DNA of 30,774 nt, from the NCBI GenBank assembly GCA_032249235.1, contig JAVVGF010000007.1, positions 1 to 30,774 on the forward strand, in the 5' to 3' direction. Position numbers and translations under genes: made by a program. Shown piece after piece: positions 1,223-30,774 of the stretch (positions are counted from its first letter, which is position 1; each line of letters begins with the position of its first letter). Under the pieces are notes generated by a model that saw nothing but the letters and a program-made list of their open reading frames with translations, had not been told where the DNA came from and did not search any database. This DNA comes from Thermoproteota archaeon. Its GTDB lineage: Archaea > Thermoproteota > Thermoprotei > Gearchaeales > Gearchaeaceae.

Positions 1223-2548
1223 TCAAACCATAATCTCAACGAATTGAGGTATATCAAGCATAGCTAAGAACAATGAAACTGGTATTACACCTTCATCTAG
1301 AGTATCTTTACTTAATACAAATACTTTCTTCATTTTACCTAACACCTTGAGCGTTTTCCTAACTCTACCAAGTTTTACCTCGAACCCAATCAATTCATCA
1401 CCATGTCTTATCGTGATATCAAGCTCCTCATCTCTCTTAATATAGTTTACTTCGAATAGTCTAGATAAATGAGAAACGACCAGGGCTTCTAATAATTTGC
1501 TCTCATCTAGTGCTTTACTCATTGTCCATTTAGAGAAGGCTGAATAAACAAAAGGATCTATGAAATAGAATTTCTTTTGTTTTCTAGATAAAACTCTCAG
1601 ATCATTGACATCTATTGCTTCAATGACCTTCAATATGAATAATTTCTCCATTAAATGAACATAGCTGATCGCAGTCTTAACATTTCCTACACCATATTCT
1701 TTAGAGATGCTTTGAAAGCTGAACTCTGAAGAACTTTTCTCAATTATCGCTTTAACAGTCAATTTGAAGAATTTTTCGCTTCTTTTAAGTTTGTTTATAT
1801 CGCTTATAATACTACTTAAAAAATCGAAAATGGTAGCATTTCTAACTTTACCTTCTATAATGAAATCTTTTATTGGATTAGGAAAGCCTCCAGTGATCAA
1901 GTAAAGCTCTAATAAATCGTTTAGCTTAGGCAAATAGGCTTGATACTTAAAGTAATTATTTAAGACGAAATCCAGATTTCCTTTTGGTAAATCTATTCCG
2001 AAAATTCTTATATAACTAGAGAAAGATAAGGGTAGCATGATTAAGGTTTTGCCATAACCTCTTCTTCCTGGAAAAGCTTCAATCTCCCTCTTTGCTTCCA
2101 TAGATAACGAGCCAGAGAGTATTAGTACATCTTCATTGAAATCTCCTTTATCTATTCTGAATTTAATTGCTCTATACCATTCTTTAGGAAATGTTACTTC
2201 ATCTAGAATTATATAAGATGTTTTAATTCTTTCCCTTTTCTTAAATTTTAAATACATAGAAATTACTTCATCGAGTTCTTTATAATCCGCTAATTTATCA
2301 CATGAAAAATAGAATATAGATTTAGGGTTTATTTTTTCATCTAATAATTTTTTAATCAAGAGTATTAAAGAAGTCGATTTACCCACTTGCCTAGGTCCAA
2401 ATATAAAATTTAGTGAAAATGGTCTTAGGGAAAGTTTTTCTTCAATCTTTGGATCCCATTTATTAGGTGATTGAAGATATTTCTTATAATATTCATTCTC
2501 TAAAAGTAGTTCCTGTGAAATCCACCATGGGTTTTGCTCTTCAATCAT
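1223..2548 (-). CDS. AAA+ superfamily ATPase (AAA_14 + DUF4143-type C-terminus)
   Basis: N-terminal QNPWW, Walker A GPRQVGKS, Walker B IILDEV, LSGS, TGGFP, KKFYFIDP and C-terminal ELD...FEVK. ATG at 2548 preferred over TTG 2569 because TTTATAA lies ~27-33 bp upstream. Confidence 0.9.
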   Translation of the reverse strand: MIEEQNPWWISQELLLENEYYKKYLQSPNKWDPKIEEKLSLRPFSLNFIFGPRQVGKSTSLILLIKKLLDEKINPKSIFYFSCDKLADYKELDEVISMYLKFKKRERIKTSYIILDEVTFPKEWYRAIKFRIDKGDFNEDVLILSGSLSMEAKREIEAFPGRRGYGKTLIMLPLSFSSYIRIFGIDLPKGNLDFVLNNYFKYQAYLPKLNDLLELYLITGGFPNPIKDFIIEGKVRNATIFDFLSSIISDINKLKRSEKFFKLTVKAIIEKSSSEFSFQSISKEYGVGNVKTAISYVHLMEKLFILKVIEAIDVNDLRVLSRKQKKFYFIDPFVYSAFSKWTMSKALDESKLLEALVVSHLSRLFEVNYIKRDEELDITIRHGDELIGFEVKLGRVRKTLKVLGKMKKVFVLSKDTLDEGVIPVSLFLAMLDIPQFVEIMV

Positions 2549-2718
2549 TTGTGTAATATAAATCCACAATGACTTATAAATATTGTTTACTCAAGATCTA
2601 CAAGGTAAAAAATTAGATGCATGGTAGTGGTCAGCTATGTACCTACCTTTAATAGTCTTTAAATTATTCTTAAACTAAACAGTCAAAAAATTTAAGAAGC
2701 TTAAATTCAAAACTAATT

Positions 2719-10607: not shown

Positions 10608-11285
10608 TTAAAGTGTTAATTTTTTAGCGGCTTCTCTATGTATTGGATCAGCAAATTCGTATTTTTCATTCTCTTTTAATAGTATACTTAGATCCATTAG
10701 TCGACATAAACTATAATATAGTGTTTTATTAGGAACACGTGCACCTGTCCAGATTTCAACAGCTCTCTTTATTGCACTCCAATTCTTATATCCCATAGCA
10801 ATAGCTCTTAATACATGTTTGTAAAGGCTACCATATCTTACGATCCTATCTAATTCGCCGGTAACCATCTTTATGGCTTCTTCTAACACTCTATCTAGCA
10901 CATCAAATCTCTTGTTCTGAACAGCTTTATATCCATAAAATGCAAGCCAACCAGGTATCCCATTTAACACCCCAACAACTTCTTCTAAAATAGTCTTTGG
11001 AGGATGCATTCCAACTTCATTAAAGCCTGTTTCTAGAAACCTTATTGAATCTTCTTTCGAAAATCTATTCAATACAATTTCATCTCTTACCCTTCCATAA
11101 AGAGGACTAGCATAGTTGTCAAACTCAAGGAAGTCGTAGAGCAATCCAACCTCTGAGCCCTTAAAATAAACTTAATACTGCGTAAATTATCATAACAATA
11201 AGCCATAATTTGTCTGAAGTCTACCTTATTATAACCTCTTAGAAATTTCAATTCTTGAACCTCATCTATGACTATGAGGAAGTAT
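10608..11285 (-). pseudogene. 5'-truncated, frameshifted archaeal ATPase (ATPase_2-like)
   Basis: FLIVIDEVQEL (Walker B)...YCYDN...KFIL, then a frameshift near 11160 into GSEVGLLYDFL...SPLYGR...GIPGWL...FADP. No Walker A present. Confidence 0.8.
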
Positions 11286-12535: not shown

Positions 12536-13507
12536 ATGCTCTTTGACCTACATCCTAAGGAAAGCAGAAAAGATCTTTTCGGTAGAGATAATGAATATAG
12601 AGAGTTGGAAAGATTGGTAAAAACAGAATGGGTTGTAGTTTTAGGAAGGAGAATGGTTGGGAAGTCAAGCCTTGTGAAAACGTTTGTTAAAGAACATGAT
12701 GGCATTTATATAAATTTAAGCGGCACGAGAGGATTTAAAGATCTTATTGCATCGATAGCTTCGCAACTAGGATATTCTCTTAAGGAATTAAGTTTAGATT
12801 TAAAGTTCCTAGAATTTAAGTGGAGCAGGATTGCAGAGGATATATTTTCTAGATTAAAAAATAAAATTGTTGCTTTGGATGAAGTTCAATACGTTTCCTC
12901 AATACATTTCCTTAGGTTATTAAAAAGAATTTGGGATACTTATCCTAATATAAGAATTATTTTTACTGGTTCAATGGTAGGATTGATCAATAAGCTTTTA
13001 AACCCTTCACCTTCATCCCCGCTATATGGTAGGAAGCCAGTTGTTCTTAATCTTCAACCTTTTAGTAAGGAGAAATCAAAAGAATTCCTCATTAGAGGAT
13101 TTAACGAATTCAACATCAATGTAAGTACAGAAGAAATAGAGAAAGTAGTTGAAAGATTAAACGGATATCCTGGATGGCTAGCATATTTTGGAAATTTTAG
13201 ATGCGTAAGAAAGCTCGACTTTGATAATTCTTTAAGATCTGTTATAGATGAGGGTGTGAAGATTTTCGAAGAAGAAGTCGAAAACTTTCTTCAAGGAAAG
13301 AAAAGAGAAAATTACATAAAAGCATTGAGAATAATAAGCTTAGGAGCTAGATGGAGCGAGCTGAAAAAAGAGCTTATGGTAAACAATAAAGTATTAAGAG
13401 ATATCCTTATGAACTTAAAGAATGCTATGCTAATAGCTGAGGATGATGGATATTACTACATACCTGATCCTGTATTAAGAATAGCTATTAAGAACATTCG
13501 AGCTTAA
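12536..13507 (+). CDS. Archaeal AAA+ ATPase (ATPase_2-like) with probable C-terminal winged helix
   Basis: MLFDLHPK..R.DLFGR, Walker A GRRMVGKS, LDEVQ, TGSMVG, PLYGR, GYPGWL, C-terminal WSELK...L.NLK...DP. Confidence 0.9.
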   Translation: MLFDLHPKESRKDLFGRDNEYRELERLVKTEWVVVLGRRMVGKSSLVKTFVKEHDGIYINLSGTRGFKDLIASIASQLGYSLKELSLDLKFLEFKWSRIAEDIFSRLKNKIVALDEVQYVSSIHFLRLLKRIWDTYPNIRIIFTGSMVGLINKLLNPSPSSPLYGRKPVVLNLQPFSKEKSKEFLIRGFNEFNINVSTEEIEKVVERLNGYPGWLAYFGNFRCVRKLDFDNSLRSVIDEGVKIFEEEVENFLQGKKRENYIKALRIISLGARWSELKKELMVNNKVLRDILMNLKNAMLIAEDDGYYYIPDPVLRIAIKNIRA

Positions 13508-13771: not shown

Positions 13772-14848
13772 ATGTTATTCGATGTAAGACCAAAGATATC
13801 TAGGAAAGATCTTTACAATTTTGAAAAGGAGATGGAAGAAATAATAAGAAATCTAGATAAGCCTATGATTGTTGTCTCAGGATTAAGAAGAACAGGCAAA
13901 ACTTCACTTGTTTTAACTTCACTTCGAGAGAGCAATTCCAAATTCCTTTTAATAGATTTAAGAGAAGGGTTCCGTTCATATAGGGAGCTTTATTTGTTGC
14001 TTTCAAAAAGTGTAAATGACTTTATTTTAAGTATATCATATTTAGAAAAAATAAAAGATTTGTTTTTAAAATTTTTAAAATCATTAAGAGGTGTATCAAT
14101 AACAGATTATTCTGTTTCTTTTAGTTGGGGAAAGGATCGCTTTTTATTAACAGAATTTTTTGAAAGATTAAACGAATTCGGAGAAAAAATCGGAGAAAGA
14201 ATTATAGTAGTATTTGATGAATTTCAAAAATCTACAGGAAATTTGGGATTGGTTTTACAAGATGCGATATCTTATTCCTATGATTATCATAGAAACATAT
14301 CATTCATATTGACAGGTTCAGAAATGGGAATACTTTATGGTATATTAAAGAATCCTAAAAATCCTTTGTTCGGAAGAGCTTTCATAAATATTAACACAAG
14401 AAAGCTAAATAAAGAAGAATCTATCGATTTTTTAGAAAAAGGATTTAGCGAGTTAAACATAAAAGTATCAAAAGAAGAAGTTGAAAAAGTAGCAAGCGAA
14501 TTAGATGGAATAATAGGCTGGTTAACATATTACGGATACCAAAGGATGATGGGAAAGGAAGATTTTGAAGAAATAAAAAAAGATGCTGTTGAGCTGGCTA
14601 AACAGGAATTAGAGAACTTTATCAAACTAACAGTAAGTAAAAGATATAAAATTGTTCTTAAACTTTTGGCTGAAGAAATAAAGGAATGGAGTTCGCTAAA
14701 AAGAAATGTTGAAAAGTATGAAGGAAAGGAAATAAGCAATAGAGTGTTATATGAAATTTTGCAACAATTGAAAAGGCATTCAATAATTGATGAAGAAAAT
14801 AACTTTACGGATCCAATATATAAAGAAGCATCAAAGTTACTTAGCTAG
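13772..14848 (+). CDS. Archaeal AAA+ ATPase (ATPase_2-like) with probable C-terminal winged helix
   Basis: MLFDVRPK, Walker A GLRRTGKT, FDEFQ, TGSEMG, PLFGR, GIIGWL, WSSLK, FTDP. Confidence 0.9.
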   Translation: MLFDVRPKISRKDLYNFEKEMEEIIRNLDKPMIVVSGLRRTGKTSLVLTSLRESNSKFLLIDLREGFRSYRELYLLLSKSVNDFILSISYLEKIKDLFLKFLKSLRGVSITDYSVSFSWGKDRFLLTEFFERLNEFGEKIGERIIVVFDEFQKSTGNLGLVLQDAISYSYDYHRNISFILTGSEMGILYGILKNPKNPLFGRAFININTRKLNKEESIDFLEKGFSELNIKVSKEEVEKVASELDGIIGWLTYYGYQRMMGKEDFEEIKKDAVELAKQELENFIKLTVSKRYKIVLKLLAEEIKEWSSLKRNVEKYEGKEISNRVLYEILQQLKRHSIIDEENNFTDPIYKEASKLLS

Positions 14849-15166: not shown

Positions 15167-16075
15167 TTGAGGGTGCAAAGCGAGCTTAAGGAAAAATTCC
15201 TTGAATTGCTAGATAAGGATAAAGAATTTCGCTATGCTGTAGCAGGCTATTTGGGGCTTGCTGATATTCTTAAAAGATTAGATAGATTTGAAGAAACTCA
15301 AACTAAAATTCTCGAAGAAATAAAGGAAATTAGAATAGAGCAAAGTAAATTATGGGAGAATCAGAACAAATTGTGGGAAGAAATAAAGAGCTTAAGAGAA
15401 AATCAAGAGAGATTAATGGAAAATCAGAATAAAATGTGGGAAGAAATACGAAGTCTGAGAGAAGATCAAAAAAGATTATGGGAGAACCAAAATAAAATGT
15501 GGGAAGAAATAAGGAATCTCAGAGAAGGCCAAAACCAAATTTGGAAAGAAATAAAGAGCCTTAGAGAGGATCAGAATAAAATGTGGGAAGAAATACGAAG
15601 TCTGAGAGAAGGCCAAAATAAAATATGGAAGGAAATTAAAAACATACGCTTAGAGATGAAAGCTATGCGCGAAGAACAGAGAAGGCTCAGTATTACTGTT
15701 GAAAGATTAACTATTTCAGTAGAAGAAGAAGCGAGGGATGTTATAAGCTACAGGCTAAATAAAGAACTCGGTATAGAAATTAAGCTTGACAGATTGTTCA
15801 TAAAAGGAAGAGAAATTAATATCTATGGTGCAAGCGGGGACATTTGCGTAATCGGAGAAGCTTCCGTTAGATTAGGGCCTCGAATAGTGAATGAGGTGGA
15901 GAAAAAAATTGAACTGATTAGGAAATATAAGCCTGAGCTTTTAAGACCTAAGTTAATAAAAGTAATATATACAGACATTGTTCTTCCTCGTGTTTTGGAA
16001 CTTGCTTCTGAGAATAATATTTGGGTATTGAACTGGAAAGGAGATTTGCTTCCTATGAAAATAATTCAATCATAG
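15167..16075 (+). CDS. Heptad-repeat coiled-coil protein with C-terminal nuclease-like domain
   Basis: N-terminal LL.KDKEFRYAVAGYLG, repeated QNKMWEE/IRSLRE heptads, C-terminal EINIYG...IGEASVR. Start may be GTG at 15173. Confidence 0.8.
   Translation: MRVQSELKEKFLELLDKDKEFRYAVAGYLGLADILKRLDRFEETQTKILEEIKEIRIEQSKLWENQNKLWEEIKSLRENQERLMENQNKMWEEIRSLREDQKRLWENQNKMWEEIRNLREGQNQIWKEIKSLREDQNKMWEEIRSLREGQNKIWKEIKNIRLEMKAMREEQRRLSITVERLTISVEEEARDVISYRLNKELGIEIKLDRLFIKGREINIYGASGDICVIGEASVRLGPRIVNEVEKKIELIRKYKPELLRPKLIKVIYTDIVLPRVLELASENNIWVLNWKGDLLPMKIIQS
15350..15640 (+). repeat. Intragenic 21-bp-module tandem repeat region
   Basis: Includes two identical 42-bp blocks (15423-15464 and 15570-15611) 147 bp apart. 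Confidence 0.85.
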
Positions 16076-16957: not shown

Positions 16958-17176
16958 ATGGTTAAGGTGCCTACAAATGTAACAATAGATATTGAAACAA
17001 GGAAAAGACTTGAAGAAGTTGCAAAGAAAGAAAAGAAAACAATGTCAGAAATAATAGAAGAAGCTTTACAAGAATATTTTAAAAAACTTGAATCAATAAG
17101 ATCGATGAAAGGAGCATTTCCACAATTAAAACCGCTAACACAAGAAGAGGAAAAAGAAATAGAAGGTTCGATATGA
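16958..17176 (+). CDS. vapB: Ribbon-helix-helix (CopG-like) antitoxin
   Basis: VTIDI beta strand followed by two helices (RLEEVAKKE, MSEIIEEAL); ATGA overlap with the PIN gene. Confidence 0.8.
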   Translation: MVKVPTNVTIDIETRKRLEEVAKKEKKTMSEIIEEALQEYFKKLESIRSMKGAFPQLKPLTQEEEKEIEGSI

Positions 17177-17559
17177 ATTCATATGTTTTAGATACCTATG
17201 CTTGGGTAGAATATTTTAGAGGAACTAATTTAGCTGATAAAGTTGAAGTTATCTTAAATGAAAAATGTTTTACTCCAACAATTGTAATAGCTGAGCTTCA
17301 AACAAAGTTTCTAAAAGAGAACTTAGATTTTACTCAAGCTGTTAATTTCATTGAAGCAAAAACAATTACAATACCACTTACTACTAATATAGCAATATTG
17401 GCTGGAAAAATAAACTTCGAAAGAAAAAAGCTTAATCCTCATTGGAGTTTATACGATTCTATTATATTGGCAACAGCAAGGGAAATTAAAGCAAAAATTG
17501 TTACTGGAGATGAGGATTTTGCAGATTTGAAAGATGAAGTATTGATGTTAAAAATATAA
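17173..17559 (+). CDS. vapC: PIN-domain toxin
   Basis: VLDTYAWVEYF, IVIAE, SLYDSIILATA, VTGDEDF; acidic PIN residues intact. Confidence 0.92.
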   Translation: MNSYVLDTYAWVEYFRGTNLADKVEVILNEKCFTPTIVIAELQTKFLKENLDFTQAVNFIEAKTITIPLTTNIAILAGKINFERKKLNPHWSLYDSIILATAREIKAKIVTGDEDFADLKDEVLMLKI

Positions 17560-18190: not shown

Positions 18191-18593
18191 TTAAATATAA
18201 AGCCCGCTTGCTTTCTTTGCTTTATCTACTTTTTTAAGAGTATTTCATCATATGTTATTAAGGGTGCTTCTAAACTGTTTGAAAGAGAAACATACAATGA
18301 ATCATAAACTGTAATATCATTTTCAAAGGCTATTTTAATTGCATCATAAATCAATTCTTCGAACCTATGTAATACTAAACCAATTTGCATTGCAGCTTTT
18401 ATTCCTAATTCAACATCATTTTCACTAAGATTAGAGTATCTTAGAACGTTTGCGAGTTCAATGAAAATTAAATCAGGAACATGCGCTTCTAGTTTTTTGT
18501 TAGCTATTTCATTTATTATTCTTTTCATATAATCAGATTCCTTTTCTATTAAAAACCACTTAGCTATCGCACTTGCATCAAAACTATTTTCAT
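18191..18593 (-). pseudogene. vapC: Frameshifted PIN-domain toxin
   Basis: ATG 18593 overlaps the antitoxin stop (ATGA). MKIV, then one base missing (18580-18583) before DASAIAKWF...ELANVL...TVYDSLY...LITYD. A second probable slip at 18230-18235 cuts off VDKAKKASGLYI*. Confidence 0.8.
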
Positions 18594-21157: not shown

Positions 21158-22202
21158 TTATTCAAGCTTAATGTCTATCCAAAATTTTTTGAATTCTACA
21201 TCAGAAATTCTTTTTAATGCGTATTTTAACTTATCATCGATATTTTGTGCAATTATTAAACCTTTTACCTTTTTACCTTCTGCAAGATTATCTTCAACCC
21301 ATTGCATATAGCTTAGTATTTTCAACGCATCAATTGAAGCTATGCCGCTTTTTAATTCTATAACTAGCATTTCTTTATCTTTTTCATTTACAGCTAACAC
21401 ATCTATTCTACCAACGCTAGTGGGATATTCTATTCCGCCATTTTCTTCGTCTTCATAAATGCTAAATCCAGGAAGCAATCTAGTTAGATTTCTTTCTATA
21501 ATTTCTTGTAAAGCTCTTTCCGATATTTCAAATTGTTTAGATACTTCTAATACTTCTCTTTCTATAATTCTTCTTAATGCATTCTCTCCTTCCTCTTCAG
21601 CAACTATTATATGGAGAAATGTATCGATATCATTAAAGTTTTTATAAGGTTCTGGAGCTAAGGATTTTAATTTTTCCAAAGTTTCAAGTATTTGAGAATA
21701 TTTCTCTCCATTTTTCCTCTAAGTTGTGGCTTCCATCCAATTTTCTCTAAACCAATTTCTACCCGATTATTCCAAATACAATATTTATCTGGATTAAAAT
21801 CGAATAAAAAAGACGTTACGAGCGCTTTTCCTAACCTTTTATTCTATATTTTCCGTCGATTTCTAAAACTTCGTTTATTCTTTGTTTGATATCTATACTC
21901 TCATTTAATAGAAATTTTAACATCTCTCTAAATTTTTTGATATCCCTTATTATTCTATCTCTGTTTATAGGAACAAACGCATGTCTGCCTGCTCCGCTAT
22001 CATAGTATTCAATGAATTTATTCTTTAACTCATCATCTGAGAGTTTTTCTAAACCCTCTTTATTTAACCATTCTGCCCATTTTTTATGAGCTTCTACTCT
22101 CTCGGGTTTATATTTGTTAATTTTTTCTTGAATTTTCGGATCATTGAAAAGCTGTTTTATTTGATCTTCGGTAAGTTTAATTTCATTATATGTGATTGTC
22201 AT
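21158..22202 (-). pseudogene. Doubly frameshifted protein with C-terminal NucS/DUF91-like PD-(D/E)XK endonuclease domain
   Basis: IKG/LGKALVTSFLFDFNPDKYCIWN...RGK/GEKYSQILETLEKLK joins the two track ORFs through slips at 21833 and 21711-21715. C-terminus has ERALQ, EYPTSVGRIDVLA, VIELK. Confidence 0.8.
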
Positions 22203-23887: not shown

Positions 23888-25096
23888 CTATTTATATGAA
23901 ATTTTCTCGACAAGAGTTCTTGCTAAATCGCTTACAAATAAACTTAAACTAGCTTCGCTAGTATTTTCAGTTTCTCTTAAAAGAAGATATCTTCTTGAGC
24001 TAAGATTCAAAAGTTCTATTCTCTCAGATACTCTCCCCTTTTGTGATGCAATGAATAATAATTTAACATATCTAACCGCATCTTCGATATATGTTAATCC
24101 TCCTTTAATTTGAGTTATGATCCCGTATTTCAATGCAGGTATCAGCAAAACATTGTTAAGTCTATCTTTATAGCCTTCTTCTTTCTTTAATTTCTCTCTG
24201 TAAAATTCGTTTTTATTCTCAATTATTTTCAACAGGTCTTCCATAAGGAAAAATAATGTGCGTAAAGGAATGAAGAAATCTGCAACAGGAGATGCAGGAT
24301 TCATACCTTTTGGTTCGCTTATAGCTACAAGATATAGGTTAACGTTTTTAATTGATTCTTTAGGCAAGTTTATTAAAAGCCAAAGAATTAAAGCTTCCAT
24401 AGGGTATATAGTTGATAATTTTTGTTTGTCTACTTCATCTTCTATTAAAGACTGTAAAGGTATTCTTCTCTCTTTTGTTTCCTGTACTAAAAAACCTCTT
24501 ATTTCGCTTGAAGATGGAGGAAATACTAATACTGTGATGTTCTCTTTGCCCATTCTAAATCTTAAGCATCTAGCATTAATGTATCCTGCAAGTAAGATCA
24601 TCAGCATGTGTAAAGTTGCACTATACTCAATTTCATGCCTACCATCAAAGTAAGCTCCTCTTGTATATCCGTAAAATTCAATGTTAAAAATGGAGGGTAA
24701 GGAATAATCACCGATAGCGAAAGGATATAAAGAATTGTTCAAATCTGAAATTGAGTACTGCTTGTTTTCAAGCTTTCTCACATATTCTTGAAACATTTCA
24801 CCTACATCTGCCGTTTCACTTACACCCAGTTCATTTTTAACTTTCTTTATTATTTTGTCATCATTACCTGAAAGTGGTATTAAAGGTTCATATCTATCTT
24901 TAATTTTGTTGATCCTTTGGCTAATTATTTCAAAGACTTCTTTATAGTTTTTAACTAGATTATAAGAAGATAATTGTATATAGTCATTGTAAGGAACAAT
25001 TTTTACTGTAGGCGATAAAAGTTCTAAGAAACTATAAACATAGTATTTAATTATTCCTTGACCGGGCAAACCAATCTTAAGTTTTTCTTCACTCAT
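23888..25096 (-). CDS. cas8a: Type I-A Cascade large subunit (Cas8a/CsaX-like)
   Basis: Last gene of the operon, overlapping cas3; PLSGND and LPSIFNIEFYGYTR motifs; 402 aa. Confidence 0.7.
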   Translation of the reverse strand: MSEEKLKIGLPGQGIIKYYVYSFLELLSPTVKIVPYNDYIQLSSYNLVKNYKEVFEIISQRINKIKDRYEPLIPLSGNDDKIIKKVKNELGVSETADVGEMFQEYVRKLENKQYSISDLNNSLYPFAIGDYSLPSIFNIEFYGYTRGAYFDGRHEIEYSATLHMLMILLAGYINARCLRFRMGKENITVLVFPPSSSEIRGFLVQETKERRIPLQSLIEDEVDKQKLSTIYPMEALILWLLINLPKESIKNVNLYLVAISEPKGMNPASPVADFFIPLRTLFFLMEDLLKIIENKNEFYREKLKKEEGYKDRLNNVLLIPALKYGIITQIKGGLTYIEDAVRYVKLLFIASQKGRVSERIELLNLSSRRYLLLRETENTSEASLSLFVSDLARTLVEKISYK

Positions 25097-27404
25097 TCCC
25101 TATCGCCTCATATAATTCATTTATGAATATCTTTCTACTTTCAGACACATCTGTTCTTCTATTCTCATAGGAATCTAAATTATCTCCTATACATATTGGT
25201 GCGTATATTAAATTATAGAGTTTTAAGTAATGATAGTTTCTATCAGTCATTATTTTCTTTATTTCCTTTAAGAAATCCAATGCTTCTTGAGTACTAATAT
25301 TAGGTTTATAGTCTAATTTTATCCCATACCTTGATACAAGCGCTTCGAAATATTTCCAATACTTATTGAAGCTCCACTTCATGTTTTTGTTTTCAATACT
25401 GGATATTAAATCATCAATATTCTTACCCGCTATATGGAATAGGATGGCTAATGCGAGGAGTCTCTTAGTATCGAAGTTTAATTCGTAGCCTTCAATGCTT
25501 TTAAGTTGTTTATAAGCGTAATAAGCTGAGGGGACTTCATGTAAATAGAAACTGCTTTTATTTTTGCAACTGCAAACATCATCAAAATATTCTTGATATT
25601 CATCCGCTGCTTTGCCAAGGTCATGTAATATGCAGGCAGCCTTTATCAATTTTTCAACATTTTCTGCATTAATATCAAGGCCCAAAGCTTTAAATCTCTT
25701 ACTCATAGTTTCAAAGCTTTCTTTCATTCTCAAAGCTCTCTTAAGTGTATTCTCTGTGTGTTCAATGAGTGATTGTCCTTCGAAGGCACACGGTTTAGAA
25801 ATTATTTCAGAAAGATTAAGACCTATTATTTTAATATATTCATCTTCGGGGATTACGATTCCTTGATAACCCTTATATAGAAAGTAGATTGAGAGAGATC
25901 CTATTTGGCTTAATTCTTCTTCTTTTAATATTTGAAACTTTTCATTAACTAACATCTTATATCTTCTAAATAACAGAGTTGCATCTTTCTCATCAACGGC
26001 TATTGCAAATTTTTTATCTAAACGTTTTTCACTAAAACAACTTATTATACCGAAGTTTTCAGTTAATCCTCCATAATGTACTATTACTTTTTTAGCTTCT
26101 TCGTGGCTGAATACAGGGAACGTATCAAGTTTGAGTAGAATATTTTTTAATTCGTAATCTATTTTAAAAAGTTCACCCACATCATTCTTATTATATACTC
26201 TCTCGATAGCCTCATTTATAAACTCGAAGGTTAATTCTTCACTATTTCTTATGACATCTAATGTCTTTTCTGTGATATTTTTATCATAAGGAGCAGAATG
26301 TTCAATTTTGGAAGAAACGTAAATATCTCCTTCTTTTTCTTCAAATCTACAAACTCTTCCTGCTCTTTGAATGAGCCTATCGATAGGACATGCGTCTGTT
26401 ATCAGTATATCGTAGCTAATGTTAAGGCCTGCCTCAACCACTTGAGTCGCTACCAGAATTTTAGGTTTTGATCTTTTAATTTCTTTTGCAAATTTACTTC
26501 TTAAAATCTCAGGAATTTTTCCATGCAAAAGCATCACCTCCTCTTTATTGGAAATGGAATTGTAAATTTGTTTAGCTTTTTCGACAGTATTTACAACAAT
26601 TAGTATGTTCTTATTTTTATCTACATTATTCAACATTTCAATTATGTCTTGATTCAATACATGCAATCTTTTTTTCTTCTCTTCAAGTTTTTTATCAAAT
26701 TCAAAATCTATACCTTTTCTGTATTCTACCTTTTCAAGTATTCCTCCAGCGTCTCTGACTTCCTCCTCTAATTGATTAATTAATTCGTTTGGTATTGTTG
26801 CGCTCATTATTACAACAGGAACTCCAGAACCGACAAGAGAAATAATAGCAGCTATTACAGATGTTAAAGCTTTTCTTTCATTGCTAATACTGCCTAATCC
26901 TGTAAATAAGTGAAATTCATCGAAAACAACTATTGAAGAGTATATCATTGCTCTTGGAAATTCGAAATGAGATGTATCATACTGAAATATTTTACTTAAT
27001 TCATGTGCTGGGGCTTTAAAAAAATTTAATAAAAATGTATCTAACGTGGTTATTATGCATTTCTTCGCAAAGAAAGGAGAACCTGGAGATAATAAATGTT
27101 GCACGGCCAAGTTATTAGAAATTGTTTTATCACCCTTAAGCTCCAGGAAAATATCATCTGCTATGCTTCGCATTGGTAAAACATGAATAACTCTGGAAAA
27201 ATACGGATAACCTTTCAAAGTTGCCCTAGCTAATACGTTTGTAATCGTGGTTTTACCATATCCTGTGGGCAAGCGTGTTGTTAAAACAAACCTTTTTTCT
27301 TCATTTAAAAGTCTATCTAACTTATCCAATGTTTCCTTAATGAAATATCTAGGGGTCCAATTTTTTTCCTTACATAACTCCTCATAAATTGAACAAAATG
27401 TCAT
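25089..27404 (-). CDS. cas3: Cas3: SF2 helicase (Cas3') fused to a C-terminal HD nuclease (Cas3'')
   Basis: LPTGYGKT, DEFH, MSAT, ATQVVEAG, QRAGRVCR, then KPCAFEGQSLIEH...LHDLGK...HE...GDNLDS. Confidence 0.93.
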   Translation of the reverse strand: MTFCSIYEELCKEKNWTPRYFIKETLDKLDRLLNEEKRFVLTTRLPTGYGKTTITNVLARATLKGYPYFSRVIHVLPMRSIADDIFLELKGDKTISNNLAVQHLLSPGSPFFAKKCIITTLDTFLLNFFKAPAHELSKIFQYDTSHFEFPRAMIYSSIVVFDEFHLFTGLGSISNERKALTSVIAAIISLVGSGVPVVIMSATIPNELINQLEEEVRDAGGILEKVEYRKGIDFEFDKKLEEKKKRLHVLNQDIIEMLNNVDKNKNILIVVNTVEKAKQIYNSISNKEEVMLLHGKIPEILRSKFAKEIKRSKPKILVATQVVEAGLNISYDILITDACPIDRLIQRAGRVCRFEEKEGDIYVSSKIEHSAPYDKNITEKTLDVIRNSEELTFEFINEAIERVYNKNDVGELFKIDYELKNILLKLDTFPVFSHEEAKKVIVHYGGLTENFGIISCFSEKRLDKKFAIAVDEKDATLLFRRYKMLVNEKFQILKEEELSQIGSLSIYFLYKGYQGIVIPEDEYIKIIGLNLSEIISKPCAFEGQSLIEHTENTLKRALRMKESFETMSKRFKALGLDINAENVEKLIKAACILHDLGKAADEYQEYFDDVCSCKNKSSFYLHEVPSAYYAYKQLKSIEGYELNFDTKRLLALAILFHIAGKNIDDLISSIENKNMKWSFNKYWKYFEALVSRYGIKLDYKPNISTQEALDFLKEIKKIMTDRNYHYLKLYNLIYAPICIGDNLDSYENRRTDVSESRKIFINELYEAIGNE

Positions 27405-28474
27405 TTCTTTATTATGAGCACTTCATTTTCTTCTTTAACACAGTATGCAACTGCTTGATCTGATAATTCAACTTCTATCTCTTTGCTTTCTATGGGGACT
27501 TTATTTCCAGGAATTACATAATCAACGGGTTTTCTGTAATAATCCCTCCCCCAACCTCCTTCCCAAAAAGTCTCTATATAATAGTTACCATTTATTTCAA
27601 TAGAAAGTTCTTTGGGAAAATAGAATAATGTTTTAACGGTTTTATCTTCTAGCTTTTTAGCATCCAATAATTCAACATTATTAATTGAAACAAGAGATTC
27701 TTTACTTCCTATTCTAGTTATATTCCATGCAGCTAAAGCTATTTTATTCAAGTTGCCAGCTAAAACCTCAGTTATTCTTTTTTCGTTTAGCAAGTATGCG
27801 ATTACAAATTCTCCCGGGAAATAGGTCTTACCTACTTGTATTGCACCTGTTCTGTATTCAGGTAAAAATCTTCTTTCAATTTCGGTAATAATTCCTTTCT
27901 TTTTTAAGGTATCTACTACAGGTTTAATCTTACCTAACGTGTTATTGATAAGATTTTCTTTTTTCTTTAATACCTCTTCACTGATCTTCTCTTTACTTAA
28001 CCGCTTCATTTTTGCTTCTAAAACACGTTTGATTGTAGATGATTCAATATAACCCTCTTCTCTTATTACTTCTACTATTAACTTTTCTTCCTCACTCAAA
28101 CCTGGAATTTCTTCAATACTTTTAGTTAGATATTCAGGGCTTATTCGTAAGTTTTTAGCGAATTGCTGAAAATGTAAAGTAATATATTTATTAATGTCTT
28201 CAACAGTAAAACCTCTAAAGTTAGGTTTAAAATAGACTGAAACTGCTAAGAAAAAGTCTTCTATTGTGACAGTTGGGCTAACAAATTTTTTATCTTTTAT
28301 GTAAATTTCTCCATCACTTCTTAAAATACCCAAATTAAAAACGGCTGCTGCAAGAGCTCCAATCAAGCTTGTTGGAGGAAATATAGAAAAAGAAGATTGC
28401 ATTTTGCTGGTTTCTGGAAATCTATTCCAAAATCCCCAATGAAGTTCACCTTCGATCCTCAGTACTTTCATCAC
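27401..28474 (-). CDS. cas5: Type I-A Cas5 with a large internal insertion
   Basis: LHWGF, PPTSLIGALA, ITRIGSKESLVSI; 357 aa. Confidence 0.92.
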   Translation of the reverse strand: MMKVLRIEGELHWGFWNRFPETSKMQSSFSIFPPTSLIGALAAAVFNLGILRSDGEIYIKDKKFVSPTVTIEDFFLAVSVYFKPNFRGFTVEDINKYITLHFQQFAKNLRISPEYLTKSIEEIPGLSEEEKLIVEVIREEGYIESSTIKRVLEAKMKRLSKEKISEEVLKKKENLINNTLGKIKPVVDTLKKKGIITEIERRFLPEYRTGAIQVGKTYFPGEFVIAYLLNEKRITEVLAGNLNKIALAAWNITRIGSKESLVSINNVELLDAKKLEDKTVKTLFYFPKELSIEINGNYYIETFWEGGWGRDYYRKPVDYVIPGNKVPIESKEIEVELSDQAVAYCVKEENEVLIIKK

Positions 28475-28478
28475 TATT

Positions 28479-29489
28479 TTATAGTTGCGTAGCTTTTTCT
28501 ATCACTTTGCTTAGTATTTCTTCTATACTATTGTAAGTTTTTAATTCTTTAGTTGCTCCTTCTTTATCAAAGATGTAAACTTCTATATCAGAATCTGATG
28601 CTTTAAAGCCTAAACGACTTAATGATCCTAAGAATTTACTCTTTCTCTCCAAAGTTGCATTTATATAATTCTTACTGTTACCTGCGCTGGCGATAAAATA
28701 GTAATCTTTGCTATATGTAGCTATCGCTGATACAATTTCGATATTCGGTAAAAATCTAGATCTTTTAGCTCCGAAGGCAAGTGAAGAAAAGAAATTAAGT
28801 AAAGCTGTTAAAGCCCCTTTAACTCTATTTTCTCTTTGAGCCTCAAGCTCTTTTTCCTTTTTCTCATCTCTAACTCCGAAGTTAGTTGAAGGAACACCTA
28901 TTTTGTTAATATTTAAAGTAAACGTAAAAGTATAAAGAGCGGATGCGACTTCAACATTATATGGTTGTTGATAGTCTTTCATTTTAGAAGGGGCAAATCT
29001 CATATGGAACTGCGACTCAAGTGCGGAAGCTTCTCCTTCGTATATTGCAGGAATTGCATAACCTACTTGGAAACAAGAAGTTCTCTTTACAGGAATTCCT
29101 GCAGGACATAAGAAACCTCCAACATCGCATATGTAATCCTTTAAGAGAATATCTACTTCAACTCTTCTTATTTCATTTTCATCTTTTGCAGGCTGTATCT
29201 TTTCTTCAGTTAATAATTCTTCAGCGCTGAACTTTAAAAATTCAAATCTTCTGCTACGTTCACTCAGCGGTAATCTTAATTTTTCTGCTTGTTCTACTAA
29301 AAGTTCCTGATAATAATGAGCAAGAGATTCTCCAGAGAGTACAGGAACAAATCTAATAGTATAACCATTCTCAGTAGGAATTACTACGGGTGCCGTTCTA
29401 TGCCTTGACAGATTACCTATTGTTTCTACACCGCTTAAGCTTTCCGTATTTATTAAAGCTCTACAAACTATACTTACGAATCCCTTCAT
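28479..29489 (-). CDS. cas7: Type I-A Cas7 (Csa2)
   Basis: ESLSGVETIGNLSRHR, VPVLSGESLAH, DVGGFL, VKRTS, QFHMRF, FGAKRSRFLP. Confidence 0.95.
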   Translation of the reverse strand: MKGFVSIVCRALINTESLSGVETIGNLSRHRTAPVVIPTENGYTIRFVPVLSGESLAHYYQELLVEQAEKLRLPLSERSRRFEFLKFSAEELLTEEKIQPAKDENEIRRVEVDILLKDYICDVGGFLCPAGIPVKRTSCFQVGYAIPAIYEGEASALESQFHMRFAPSKMKDYQQPYNVEVASALYTFTFTLNINKIGVPSTNFGVRDEKKEKELEAQRENRVKGALTALLNFFSSLAFGAKRSRFLPNIEIVSAIATYSKDYYFIASAGNSKNYINATLERKSKFLGSLSRLGFKASDSDIEVYIFDKEGATKELKTYNSIEEILSKVIEKATQL

Positions 29490-29491
29490 GT

Positions 29492-29947
29492 TTAAGCACC
29501 ACCTCCAGCTAAACTACTACCAGCCGTTTTGCTTTTCTTCCCAGATTCTACCACACTTGCTACGAGGCCCATTGCTGAAGCACCTACTATTCTAGCAATT
29601 CTTATATCATTCATAGAATCTGTGAGGAATTCATCGATATCAGAAGAGGAAGGCAATGTGCCGTAAAATTCATAATAGTCTTCATCTAAATCAACGACTA
29701 TATGTGGTTTGGCTTCTTTTCTTCCTTCTTTTACTTCTTCTTTGGGAATTTCCTTTAGTTTTCCTTGCTTTAATAAAGCTTCAGCTATTCTAGAAACTTC
29801 ATATATCGTTTTTTGCACAGCATCTATGCTTACTGCATTATTAAGTCTATCAAGTAAAGTATAATGACCCATTGCTATAGCAACTCCGGCGAGAAGGTTT
29901 CTAACTCTTACATGCTTCCTTATTATATCCTCTTTTTTCTCGGACAT
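29492..29947 (-). CDS. csa5: Type I-A small subunit Csa5 (Cas11)
   Basis: NLLA, LLDRLNNA, LPSSSDIDEFL, ARIVGASAM; first gene of the operon. Confidence 0.88.
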   Translation of the reverse strand: MSEKKEDIIRKHVRVRNLLAGVAIAMGHYTLLDRLNNAVSIDAVQKTIYEVSRIAEALLKQGKLKEIPKEEVKEGRKEAKPHIVVDLDEDYYEFYGTLPSSSDIDEFLTDSMNDIRIARIVGASAMGLVASVVESGKKSKTAGSSLAGGGA

Positions 29948-30502
29948 AACTAATTAATATTTTAAAAATGTATAAATTAATGTTTCTCAGAATTGAAAAA
30001 TAATTGAGGAATATTCTTTAATTTCAATCTAAGATTTGTTTCTAATTTTTGAAATAACAACGGATCTTCGATATTTATTCAGTAATTTTTTGCGGTTACT
30101 TGCTTATGAAAGGGCATAAACGTAGTGTGCTATTTTGACTCTAGTTTCTTCATTTGAAAAATTAATGAGCAGGTTGTCTTATTAATACCATCTTGTTATC
30201 TCTTCATTATTAACTTTCTATCGAAGCTTTATGTTGCAAATACTATTGCATTAACTTAGTTTAGGGGTATAAATTTCGATAAAATTTGAAGAAAAATTCT
30301 TAAGTGTGTATTATAACAAGTATTTGCCGTTTCCGTATCCAAGCGTGCTTCTTGATACATTAATTATAAAAGTGGTTAGTATTAGTATTGTTACTTTTTC
30401 AATGGATGAGAAGGTAATTTGGGCGATAATAAATAGACGGTAAATCTTTAAATCATTTTCTGAGTTTAAGTTAGCTGATCGTATCTACTCAATTAGTCGT
30501 AT

Positions 30503-30774
30503 TTAATTGATTTTGAGCATTTCTTCATATAACTCTTTTAAAATTTCTATATAATTTGCTTCATCTTTCTCTATTAAATCAATATTATTTTCTAACTTCC
30601 TAGTTGTATCTACGCTTATATAGTCATAATAGTTTTCTTTTAAAAAATTGAACACTTCTTTTCCAAGCTTTGTTGCGGCAAGTTTACCTTTATAATTTTT
30701 GACTTCAAAAACATATCCCGCTTTAATAGCACCACTACAACCCATGATCTGCTAAAGGATCTTGAAAAGAATTA
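30503..30774 (-). CDS. rgy: 3' end of reverse gyrase (topoisomerase IA module C-terminus), interrupted or fragmentary at the window edge
   Basis: GYVFEV...TKLGKEVFNFL...YISVDTTRKLENNIDLIE...YIEILKELYEE matches reverse-gyrase C-termini; there is an in-frame TAG at 30754-30752. Confidence 0.7.

What the first reader, a model, noticed from the sequence alone, without database searches (positions are those of the whole stretch)
27875..28162. Cas5 carries a ~95-aa winged-helix-like domain inserted between conserved motifs
Seen: between YITLHFQ and RRFLPEYRTGAIQVGK (residues ~105-200) lies PGLSEEEKLIVEVIREEGYIESSTIKRVL...IKPVVDTLKKKGIITE. This has the helix1, helix2 and terminal L.KKG.I signature of MarR/ArsR-like wHTH domains, plus a charged helical extension. 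The protein is 357 aa, longer than I recall for typical Cas5a. The insertion site probably corresponds to the Cas5 thumb near the crRNA 5' handle and PAM-proximal DNA. Inference: a Cascade with a built-in DNA-binding module, for target duplex binding, recruitment or self-regulation of the cas promoter in place of Csa3. This is the best candidate here for an undescribed system.
Basis: partly seen in the sequence, partly recalled or inferred. Interest (0 to 1): 0.82.

Follow-up and report, generated by a model that had tools for sequence, protein, structure and literature searches.

The report
Cas5a with winged-helix thumb insert
A CRISPR type I-A Cas5 protein from an uncultured archaeon carries an extra winged-helix domain spliced into its thumb loop, a rare variant whose job is unknown but which does not replace the usual regulator Csa3.

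Summary
The Cas5a gene (27401-28474, minus strand, 357 aa) has about 97 extra residues (104-200) between YITLHFQ and RRFLPEYRTGAI. Of 164 Cas5a homologues compared, 10 have an insert of 68 aa or more, and these form one clade (support 0.979). AlphaFold2 folds the insert confidently as a separate domain on two flexible conserved linkers. A Foldseek-independent structure search puts winged-helix domains on top (PriA WH, Fur, MecI, Zur; Z 6-7.7). Sub-threshold sequence matches point the same way (BlaI/Penicillinase_R 22.0 bits against a cut-off of 22.6). Plain Foldseek found nothing. The charged segment is a helical hairpin between helices 2 and 3 that shorter relatives lack. The insert is under purifying selection (dN/dS 0.12-0.145; core 0.08-0.146).

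The "in place of Csa3" idea fails. Eight of 13 insert-bearing loci have an intact csa3 directly upstream of csa5. This window holds only a decayed csa3 remnant, so the insert predates that loss.

The function is not shown. My best guess is an auxiliary contact with the PAM-proximal duplex at the Cascade tail. Docking of a protein partner is nearly as likely. I rate it a new variant of a known kind, of moderate interest.

The parts
27401..28474 (-). cas5a CDS (357 aa from GTG; probably 356 aa from the ATG one codon in)
   Evidence: ORF list; TIGR01874 at 65.1 bits; PDB 9cp1_G at E 1e-38; Foldseek TM 0.87 on 9cp1_G
28166..28195 (-). Residues 94-103 (INKYITLHFQ): conserved ascending limb of the thumb-equivalent hairpin, low confidence in the monomer model
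   Evidence: pLDDT below 50 for 94-103; conserved in alignment A1; the thumb assignment is inferred from position
27875..28165 (-). Residues 104-200: the inserted winged-helix-like domain
   Evidence: Alignments A1, A2 and A3; AF2 pLDDT 81-94; VIA-align matches to winged-helix domains
28055..28093 (-). Residues 128-140: helix 1 of the wHTH (EEEKLIVEVIREE), followed by the invariant GYxE strand
   Evidence: DSSP on the models; G41, Y42 and E44 invariant in A3; aligned to BlaI helix 1
27935..28021 (-). Residues ~152-180: K/E-rich helical hairpin extension between helix 2 and helix 3, of variable length in relatives
   Evidence: Helices 145-159 and 166-180; gap in L016/P0005, P0007, P0008 and L017
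27896..27928 (-). Residues 183-193: helix 3 (the position of the recognition helix), ending in the conserved L-x-KKG motif
   Evidence: DSSP; L68, K71 and G72 conserved in A3
27836..27874 (-). Residues 201-213 (RRFLPEYRTGAIQ): conserved descending limb of the thumb-equivalent hairpin
   Evidence: R201 and R202 invariant in A1; pLDDT below 50 for 203-213
29492..29947 (-). csa5 (small subunit), first gene of the interference operon
   Evidence: PF09702 at 70.5 bits
28479..29489 (-). cas7/csa2
   Evidence: PF01905 at 220 bits; TIGR02583 at 247 bits
25089..27404 (-). cas3, with the helicase fused to a C-terminal HD nuclease (771 aa)
   Evidence: TIGR01587 on residues 46-386 and TIGR01596 on 546-708
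23888..25096 (-). CsaX-like putative large subunit (402 aa)
   Evidence: TIGR03876 at E 2.4e-10, but 40 bits against a cut-off of 222; conserved at this position in related loci
29992..30249 (-). Decayed remnant of the first ~90 codons of csa3; the rest of the gene is deleted
   Evidence: tblastn E 0.005 and blastn 67-69% identity to the csa3 of L043 and L045; no ORF over 34 aa; alignment A8

Best explanation
This is a genuine type I-A Cas5a into which a winged-helix (wHTH-like) domain of about 97 residues has been inserted. The insertion point is the tip of the beta-hairpin that corresponds by position to the Cas5 thumb. The entering strand (105-111) and the leaving strand (196-202) pair with each other and with the short GYIE strand. 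The helix bundle therefore sits on a two-stranded stalk that prolongs the thumb. It is joined to the palm by two conserved linkers (INKYITLHFQ and RRFLPEYRTGAI) that are disordered in the monomer model. All of this is shown here.

The rest is inferred. In assembled Cascade the Cas5 thumb folds over crRNA position -1, next to the last Cas7 and the large subunit, where the target duplex enters. The domain should therefore lie at the PAM-proximal tail of the complex. I think it most likely acts as an auxiliary, largely sequence-unspecific grip on the PAM-proximal double-stranded DNA. Such a grip would help target capture or R-loop seeding, much as the extra helical domain of Cas5f2 handles the PAM duplex. 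The insert arose once in one family-level lineage of uncultured Thermoproteota. It is kept under purifying selection and co-exists with Csa3, so it is not a substitute for that regulator.
For: - Identity and site.
- Rarity and single origin: 10 of 164 homologues carry an insert. Three of the 150 listed 50%-identity representatives carry it. The carriers form a clade of 11 terminals with support 0.979.
- Distribution: the insert query found only G000 and G394 (same family), plus one spurious Rad50 coiled-coil match, among 401 genomes of the phylum. The full protein matched contiguously across the insert only in G394, G405 and G404, all of family f1, among 120 genomes of the class.
- Fold: the whole-protein model has pLDDT 86.9, with the insert at 87-94 and the linkers below 50. 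The insert-only model has pLDDT 87.5. In the VIA-align search of 48,161 chains the top rows are PriA WH (Z 7.7), Fur DBD (6.9), MecI (6.7), Zur and Nur. About 25 of the 50 rows bear titles I recognise from recall as winged-helix proteins.
- Independent sequence signals: the A3 profile hits the PH0140 Lrp/AsnC-type regulator at E 8e-6, summed over weak stretches, and BlaI at E 0.066 aligned over helix 1 to helix 2. The short L016 variant scores 22.0 bits on Penicillinase_R against a cut-off of 22.6, with weak TrmB, PadR, MarR_2, GntR and Crp-HTH hits.
- Constraint: dN/dS of the insert is 0.12-0.145, against 0.08-0.146 for the core.
- Position of the thumb in Cascade: E. coli Cas5e thumb residues 79-114, folding over base -1 and reaching Cas7.6 (passages of PMC5965380).
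- Precedent for a Cas5-borne DNA-reading domain: the Cas5f2/Cas5fv AH domain (passages of PMC12956352 and PMC6546366).
Against: - No DNA binding was tested.
- All structural Z-scores are below 8. The tool itself warns that this range can reflect only a common arrangement.
- Foldseek against the PDB found nothing at E below 1, and no Pfam family reaches its cut-off.
- The exposed residues of helix 3 vary between relatives. Only L, K and G of the L-x-KKG motif are conserved, and the net charge of the insert is only 0 to +6.
- Winged-helix matches include protein- and peptide-binding examples: RPA32C, cullin and RiPP recognition elements.
- The locus keeps a CsaX-like large subunit, so no missing PAM reader needs replacing.
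- In L051, L052, P0009 and P0010 the same site holds a 72-aa segment with 12% identity that the insert profile does not find. The wHTH is therefore dispensable in at least one sub-lineage.
- The thumb assignment rests on position and on low monomer confidence, not on a superposition at residue level.
Confidence: 0.4

Rival explanations
1. The winged-helix domain is a protein-docking module. It would hold or position another subunit at the Cascade tail, such as the CsaX-like large subunit, the fused Cas3 or the neighbouring Cas7. Alternatively it would recruit Csa3, and it would not touch DNA itself.
For: Winged-helix domains that bind proteins or peptides are among the structural matches: RPA32C, cullin WH-B and RiPP recognition elements. 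The surface of helix 3 is not conserved, and the invariant polar residues (N, S, Y, E) lie on the strands rather than on helix 3. The net charge is near neutral in several relatives. All loci with the wHTH-type insert also have a fused cas3 of 770-870 aa, apart from L042, where cas3 is broken. Sister loci and L051/L052 have split cas3' and cas3''. CsaX of the wHTH group has a 13-aa segment (residues 210-222) that sister loci lack.
Against: The co-occurring features belong to a single clade, so they count as one event and give no independent support. No partner was identified. In E. coli Cascade the thumb tip contacts the Cas7 fingers, but Cas7 shows no clade-specific change here.
Confidence: 0.3
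2. One reading: the domain lets Cascade bind the cas promoter and regulate itself, replacing Csa3.
For: In Sulfolobus, Cascade together with Csa3b represses the interference promoter (abstract and passages of PMC5389559). In this genome csa3 is reduced to a remnant, and no Csa3 passes the family cut-off anywhere in the 91%-complete assembly. The TATA-like region upstream of csa5 is retained.
Against: Eight of 13 insert-bearing loci, representing four distinct lineages, have an intact csa3 directly upstream of csa5, and a ninth has csa3 fragments. The insert therefore arose and persists alongside Csa3, and the loss of csa3 here is recent and local. Helix 3 is not conserved, as a shared operator would require. 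Profile comparison shows no relation between the insert and the wHTH of Csa3 (hhalign probability 4%).
Confidence: 0.08
3. The insert is a tolerated decoration of a surface loop with no specific role.
For: It evolves faster than the core in protein identity (37% against 57% for P0007; 12% against 51% for P0009). The length of its helical hairpin varies. One relative (L050) has a frameshift inside it.
Against: dN/dS of 0.12-0.145 is close to that of the core. The reading frame and the motifs GYxE and L-x-KKG are kept down to about 55% core identity. The model is a confidently folded domain.
Confidence: 0.12

Closest known systems
Type I-A Cas5a of the Sulfolobales aCascade (PDB 9cp1/9crp chain G) and of Pyrococcus furiosus (7tr6 chain P)
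   Same: Same family and fold: profile E 1e-38, Foldseek E 8e-14 with TM 0.87 on the target. Same operon position between cas7 and cas3.
   Different: Those proteins are 240-256 aa and have only a few residues where this one has a ~97-aa domain. I could not read the papers behind these entries.
Cas5f2 (Cas5fv) of type I-F2 Cascade, with its alpha-helical (AH) domain
   Same: A Cas5 that carries an extra domain beside the thumb, and that domain handles the double-stranded PAM region (passages of PMC12956352 and PMC6546366). This is the best functional analogy.
   Different: The AH domain is a six-helix bundle, not a winged helix. It compensates for a missing large subunit, whereas this locus keeps a CsaX-like large subunit and Csa5. 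The two are not related by sequence or fold beyond the Cas5 core (5o6u_F at Foldseek E 0.07).
Cas5-HNH of type I-E/I-F variant Cascades
   Same: Another Cas5 that acquired a whole extra domain (search listing of 10.1101/2024.07.22.604555; PDB 8zlu and 8yb6 appear as weak matches).
   Different: The added domain there is a nuclease that takes over from Cas3. Here the domain has no catalytic signature and cas3 is present.
BlaI/MecI, Fur and PadR-type winged-helix DNA-binding domains
   Same: Closest folds (MecI Z 6.7, Fur Z 6.9) and closest sequence signals (BlaI E 0.066; Penicillinase_R 22.0 bits). Shares the pattern of helix 1, a short strand, helix 2 and helix 3 ending in L-x-KKG-hydrophobic.
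   Different: Below every family cut-off. The third strand of the sheet comes from the N-terminal entry strand rather than from a hairpin after helix 3. A 20-30-aa helical hairpin is inserted between helices 2 and 3. There is no dimerisation domain.
Csa3 / Csa3b, the CARF-wHTH regulator of type I-A cassettes
   Same: A winged-helix protein tied to the same operon, and it works together with Cascade at the promoter (PMC5389559).
   Different: It is a separate gene, present next to most insert-bearing loci. There is no detectable relation between its wHTH and the insert.

Membership tests
Cas5a (type I-A Cas5, TIGR01874) | Match to the family model above its curated cut-off | tested here: met
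   65.1 bits against a cut-off of 23.05, in two stretches split by the insert; also found by the genome search
Cas5a (type I-A Cas5, TIGR01874) | Cas5 palm fold like solved Cas5a subunits | tested here: met
   Foldseek hits 9cp1_G at E 8e-14 (TM 0.87 on the target), 4mjk and 7tr6_P
Cas5a (type I-A Cas5, TIGR01874) | Encoded between cas7/csa2 and cas3 in a csa5-led interference operon | tested here: met
   same order in related loci
Cas5a (type I-A Cas5, TIGR01874) | Binds the crRNA 5' handle within Cascade | not testable with these tools
   No CRISPR array is assembled in this genome
Winged-helix (wHTH) fold | Three-helix core with a small antiparallel sheet | tested here: met
   AF2 models show strand, helix 1, short strand, helix 2, (extra helix), helix 3, strand at pLDDT 87.5. 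The third strand comes from the N-terminus, giving a permuted wing.
Winged-helix (wHTH) fold | Structural similarity to solved winged-helix domains clearly above background | tested here: inconclusive
   In VIA-align the top rows are winged-helix domains, but Z is 5.3-7.7, all below 8. Foldseek found nothing at E below 1.
Winged-helix (wHTH) fold | Nucleic-acid binding through helix 3 and the wing | not testable with these tools
   Only indirect data: helix 3 residues are variable and the net charge is 0 to +6
   MarR_2 E 0.21-0.23 in 2 of 10 members, and no ArsR model listed. The window insert alone gives no wHTH family at E below 0.1.
BlaI/MecI (Penicillinase_R, PF03965) | Match at the gathering cut-off | tested here: not met
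   Best member (L016 short variant) scores 22.0 bits against 22.6, and only 2 of 10 members match. BlaI 1p6r at E 0.066.
Type I-A CRISPR-Cas interference module | csa5, cas7/csa2, cas5a, cas3 and a Cas8a-type large subunit | tested here: met
   The large subunit is only a weak CsaX match (40 bits against a cut-off of 222).
Type I-A CRISPR-Cas interference module | cas3 split into cas3' and cas3'' | tested here: not met
   A single 771-aa ORF with the helicase followed by the HD domain. It is split in sister loci.
Type I-A CRISPR-Cas interference module | Adjacent csa3 regulator (over 90% of I-A cassettes according to PMC5389559) | tested here: not met
   Only a remnant at 29992-30249. No TIGR01884 match over the cut-off in the genome. 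Present in 8 of 13 related insert-bearing loci.
Cas5f2-type Cascade (the Cas5 domain replaces the large subunit) | Absence of large and small subunits | tested here: not met
   A CsaX-like gene and csa5 are present

The most novel reading that the evidence does not exclude
A Cascade whose Cas5 thumb carries its own winged-helix DNA-binding head. This would give the complex a crRNA-independent hold on double-stranded DNA at the PAM-proximal end. It would be a second PAM-side reader next to the large subunit, or the part of Cascade that parks it on the cas promoter together with Csa3 as in the Sulfolobus Csa3b-Cascade repression model. It would be the first Cas5 with a transcription-factor-type domain.
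Probability: 0.3. Interest if true: 0.7.

Novelty: new variant of a known kind. Interest (0 to 1): 0.5.

Why it matters
Cas5 is normally a compact cap on the crRNA 5' handle. The known cases where it gained a domain (the AH domain in I-F2, HNH in I-E/I-F variants) each changed how the complex recognises or destroys DNA. A winged helix held on the thumb, right where the target duplex enters, could alter PAM-side DNA handling, Cas3 loading or the Csa3-Cascade feedback on the promoter in type I-A systems. These systems are being developed as thermostable detection and editing tools. The clade is small and uncultured, so the practical route is recombinant reconstitution. The negative result also matters: the insert is not a replacement for Csa3.

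Tried and rejected
- **Foldseek.** The insert model against the PDB gave no match at E below 1; the top rows were translin and other helical proteins.
- **Pfam.** The window insert alone gave only noise-level rows: Enkurin, DUF3368, AlkZ-rel, Mga, MCM_WH_arc.
- **ESM Atlas.** Residues 104-200 gave best scores of 0.79-0.81, in the range the tool says shuffled proteins also reach.
- **Origin of the domain.** The A3 profile was searched against 5.8 billion proteins. In the 42-177-aa length class it found only P0170, which is the frameshifted N-terminal Cas5 fragment of L050. In the 178-2000-aa class it found only the Cas5a proteins P0001-P0008. No free-standing or otherwise-fused relative was found.
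- **Relation to Csa3.** hhalign of the insert (A3) against Csa3 (A7) aligned 16 columns at probability 4%, so there is no evidence the insert was copied from the neighbouring csa3.
- **Wider genome search.** The insert query over 401 genomes of the phylum gave one extra hit. It was a coiled-coil stretch of a Rad50-like protein next to an Mre11-like ORF, and I rejected it as spurious.
- **Predicted complex.** The insert (residues 104-203) was sent against CsaX, Cas7 and Csa5 in one job. The verdict was 'no answer' (score 0.02, mark 0.32), which is no evidence either way.
- **Compensating losses.** I looked for losses or gains in Cas7, Csa5 and CsaX of insert-bearing loci and found only small CsaX differences.
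- **cas6.** The cas6 question was left open. TIGR01877 was not found in the genome. A script meant to find cas6 through ~275-aa neighbours gave nothing usable, because the L016 neighbour has a close homologue elsewhere in this genome and is not cas6.
- **Literature.** Searches for a described Cas5 or Cas5a with a winged-helix insert found none. The library lacks most subscription journals. The papers behind PDB 7tr6 (Hu et al. 2022, recalled, not held) and 9cp1 were not seen. Supplements were not consulted.
Full report
**Locus.** The right end of the window holds a type I-A interference operon on the minus strand.
- csa5 at 29492-29947 (PF09702, 70.5 bits).
- cas7/csa2 at 28479-29489 (PF01905, 220 bits).
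- The gene in question at 27401-28474.
- A 771-aa cas3 at 25089-27404, in which a Cas3' helicase core (residues 46-386) is followed by a Cas3'' HD domain (546-708).
- A 402-aa ORF at 23888-25096 with a weak CsaX match.

The window is a whole contig (C7) of a 1.43-Mb, 18-contig, 91%-complete archaeal assembly. Its csa1-cas1-cas2-cas4 adaptation genes lie on another small contig. No CRISPR array is assembled. No cas6 was found with TIGR01877.

**The observation.** The 357-aa product is Cas5a. TIGR01874 scores 65.1 bits against a cut-off of 23.05, but in two stretches that break at profile position 46/47. A profile of the family hits the solved aCascade Cas5 (9cp1_G/9crp_G, 240 aa) at E 1e-38. 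At the break that protein has only 'QRKERR'.

In the alignment with 22 homologues, the window protein and 9 of the 22 (P0001, P0002, P0004-P0010; 331-358 aa) carry extra residues between YITLHFQ and RRFLP. P0003 also carries them but was not in that alignment. The next relatives (271-290 aa; Bathyarchaeota, Methanosuratincola and similar records) do not. Over all 164 fetched homologues in which both flanks could be matched, 10 have a gap of 68-97 aa. The next value is 38, extrapolated from partial matches, and most are under 20. Only 3 of the 150 listed 50%-identity representatives are of the long kind. The finding's coordinates (27875-28162) are residues 105-200.

**Fold.**
- AlphaFold2 on the family alignment gives pLDDT 86.9. 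The insert (104-202) scores 87-94, while residues 94-103 and 203-213, the two conserved flanking motifs, fall below 50. The domain is therefore a separate body on two flexible tethers.
- The insert alone gives pLDDT 87.5, with the order strand, short helices, helix 1, two-residue strand, helix 2, extra helix, helix 3, strand.
- Foldseek against the PDB found nothing at E below 1.
- VIA-align against 48,161 representative chains, which does not depend on Foldseek, put winged-helix domains on top. These were the PriA WH domain (Z 7.7, 69 residues, rmsd 2.5), the Fur DNA-binding domain (6.9), MecI (6.7), Zur (6.4), then Nur, RPC62, TFE-alpha, E2F-DP, RPA32C, RosR, TrmBL2, PadR/AphA, Hel308 WH, cullin WH, TubR, histone H5 and ORC.
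- About 25 of the 50 rows are proteins I recognise from recall as winged helices. All Z-scores are below 8, a range the tool warns may be a common arrangement.
- Independent sequence evidence agrees in kind but not in strength. The insert profile (A3, 10 sequences) matches a Pyrococcus Lrp/AsnC-type regulator at E 8e-6, summed over weak stretches. It matches BlaI at E 0.066 over 'EIPGLSDEEK..GYIE..IKKVL'.
- The short L016 variant reaches 22.0 bits on Penicillinase_R against a cut-off of 22.6. TrmB, PadR, MarR_2, GntR, Crp-HTH and MCM_WH_arc appear as weaker rows.

I conclude that the domain is winged-helix-like, but it is not a member of MarR, ArsR or any other curated family. Two peculiarities stand out. 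The third strand of the small sheet is the N-terminal entry strand, so the 'wing' is the stalk that leads back into Cas5. And in the window's sub-lineage a K/E-rich helical hairpin (about residues 152-180) is intercalated between helices 2 and 3. That hairpin is absent from L016/P0005 and shorter in P0007, P0008 and L017.

**Where the insert sits.** This is inferred. E. coli Cas5e has a palm (1-78, 115-224) and a thumb (79-114). [quoted passage not shown] Here the break lies at 36% of the core length, after the third palm strand. Its flanks are the most conserved and the least confidently modelled segments of the protein (R201 and R202 invariant). That is what a thumb ordered only in the complex would look like. 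I could not superpose at residue level, so the assignment 'tip of the thumb' remains an inference.

**Distribution and selection.**
- In a maximum-likelihood tree of the core, with insert columns removed, I used the window protein plus those of P0001-P0069 that are at least 220 aa; weaker hits were left out. The 11 long proteins form one clade with support 0.979.
- Scans of public contigs with the family alignment returned 106 loci, of which 13 encode the long form (L016, L017, L042-L052). One of these, L050, has a frameshift inside the insert.
- Among 401 genomes of the phylum, the insert query found only the window's genome and one genome of the same family (G394), plus a spurious coiled-coil match.
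- Among 120 genomes of the class, the full protein matched contiguously across the insert only in three genomes of the same family: G394, G405 and G404.
- The insert diverges faster than the core in protein identity: 37% against 57% for P0007.
- Among close relatives its dN/dS is 0.12-0.145, against 0.08-0.146 for the core. It is therefore constrained and not junk.
- In L051, L052, P0009 and P0010 the same site holds a 72-aa segment with 12% identity to the window's insert that the insert profile does not detect. I could not tell whether it is a decayed or a replaced domain.
- The insert profile finds no free-standing or otherwise-fused relative among 5.8 billion proteins.

**The Csa3 question.**
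- In the own genome no TIGR01884 match passes the cut-off. A Csa3 model built from relatives finds nothing better than E 0.0016.
- In the relatives the ORF of 204-213 aa directly upstream of csa5, on the same strand and 59-66 bp away, is Csa3. It scores 92-100 bits against a cut-off of 60.2 in the three I scanned.
- The model built from those three finds it intact in 8 of the 13 insert-bearing loci (L016, L043, L045-L050; four distinct lineages). It finds two fragments in L052.
- Of the remaining four, L017 and L044 have no upstream sequence. L051 has cas4 and a gap. L042 is rearranged.
- The window itself keeps a recognisable remnant of the first ~90 codons of csa3 at 29992-30249. The evidence is tblastn E 0.005 and 67-69% nucleotide identity, with small frame-breaking indels and no ORF over 34 aa. 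A ~400-nt deletion then removes the rest of csa3 up to the conserved TATA-like region before csa5.

The insert therefore arose and persists next to Csa3, and the loss of csa3 here is local and later. Profile comparison gives no sign that the insert was copied from the wHTH of Csa3 (probability 4%).

**Mechanism.** What is shown is a folded, selected, winged-helix-like head on a stalk that prolongs the thumb-equivalent hairpin of Cas5a. What is inferred is that in the complex it lies at the tail, next to crRNA position -1, the last Cas7 and the large subunit, where the PAM-proximal duplex enters.
- My preferred reading (0.4) is an auxiliary, largely unspecific grip on that duplex. It rests on three points: most of the closest folds and all of the sequence signals are DNA-binding winged helices, a basic residue at the start of helix 3 and the KKG at its end recur, and the AH domain of Cas5f2 shows that a Cas5-borne domain can handle the PAM duplex.
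- Against it: helix 3 is otherwise variable, the net charge is only 0 to +6, a large subunit is present, and one sub-lineage does without this domain.
- A protein-docking role (0.3) fits the variable helix 3, the conserved polar residues on the strands and the winged-helix matches that bind proteins or peptides. The wHTH-type loci also share a fused cas3 (770-870 aa) and a small CsaX insertion, but these are single-clade coincidences.
- Self-regulation instead of Csa3 (0.08) is contradicted as a general explanation. A cooperative role with Csa3 at the promoter, as in the Sulfolobus Csa3b-Cascade model, is not excluded and belongs to the novel reading.
- A neutral decoration (0.12) is unlikely given the dN/dS values.
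- The one complex prediction I ran gave no verdict and is not evidence either way.

**Comparison and novelty.** The protein is a member of Cas5a by every test I could run. The system is type I-A with two departures, a fused cas3 and a lost csa3. The insert works like nothing yet described for I-A. The nearest analogies are Cas5f2 with its AH domain and Cas5-HNH, which differ in fold, in context and in what they replace. Five literature searches found no report of a winged helix in Cas5. The library omits the structural papers on I-A Cascade, so I cannot exclude a mention there. I rate it a new variant of a known kind, of moderate interest (0.5). It is real, rare, selected and placed at a mechanistically sensitive spot, but it is confined to a small uncultured lineage and has no demonstrated function.

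Noticed in passing
window 29992-30249 (-), and up to 30500: A decayed remnant of the first ~90 codons of csa3, followed by a ~400-nt deletion that removes the CARF C-terminal part and the wHTH. The TATA-like region before csa5 is kept. No Csa3 passes the family cut-off anywhere in the 91%-complete genome, so the interference operon may be unregulated or regulated differently here.
   Followed up: yes
window 25089-27404 (-): cas3 is a single 771-aa gene with the helicase first and the HD nuclease at the C-terminus. Sister type I-A loci, and L051/L052, have separate cas3' (503-582 aa) and cas3'' (224-269 aa). All loci with the wHTH-type Cas5a insert share the fusion, except L042, where cas3 is broken into 334 and 476 aa.
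   Followed up: partly
L050:10001-11013: A relative (71% identical) has a frameshift inside the insert in an A-rich stretch, splitting cas5a into ORFs of 156 and 169 aa. This is either an assembly error or a pseudogene. The N-terminal piece is on record as a separate protein (P0170).
   Followed up: partly
L042 (96% identical Cas5a): The closest metagenomic relative looks rearranged or decaying. There is no csa5 or cas7 directly before cas5a, cas3 is split into 334 + 476 aa, and csaX into 220 + 81 aa. A second, short cas5/cas7 pair lies elsewhere on the contig.
   Followed up: no
L051:3054-3269 and L052:2793-3008: In a sub-lineage nested in the same clade, the thumb site carries a different-looking 72-aa segment that appears partly beta-rich by eye. 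It has 12% identity to the window's insert and is not found by the insert profile. The thumb tip may be a hot spot for insertions.
   Followed up: partly
insert-bearing loci L016, L043 and L045-L050 versus sister loci: In the insert-bearing loci csa3 lies on the same strand as the interference operon, 59-66 bp upstream of csa5. In most sister loci it is divergent.
   Followed up: no
window 15167-16075 (+): A 302-aa ORF built from 63-nt and 42-nt tandem repeats (about 15336-15636), giving a repetitive coiled-coil-like protein (WEEIRSLREDQ-type units). There is no family match above noise.
   Followed up: no
window 10608-11144 (-), 12536-13507 (+), 13772-14848 (+), 1223-2569 (-): Several paralogous archaeal ATPases (PF01637 / AAA_14), three of them with an MCM_C-type winged helix at the C-terminus. 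PIN-domain ORFs lie at 17173-17559 (+) and 18226-18528 (-), and a NucS_C-like ORF at 21158-21679 (-). Together they suggest a defence or mobile-element-rich island beside the cas operon.
   Followed up: no
window 30503-30745 (-): An 80-aa ORF matching only the last ~60 positions of the bacterial-type topoisomerase model (35.1 bits, exactly at the cut-off). It lies just beyond the csa3 remnant near the contig end and may be a gene fragment.
   Followed up: no
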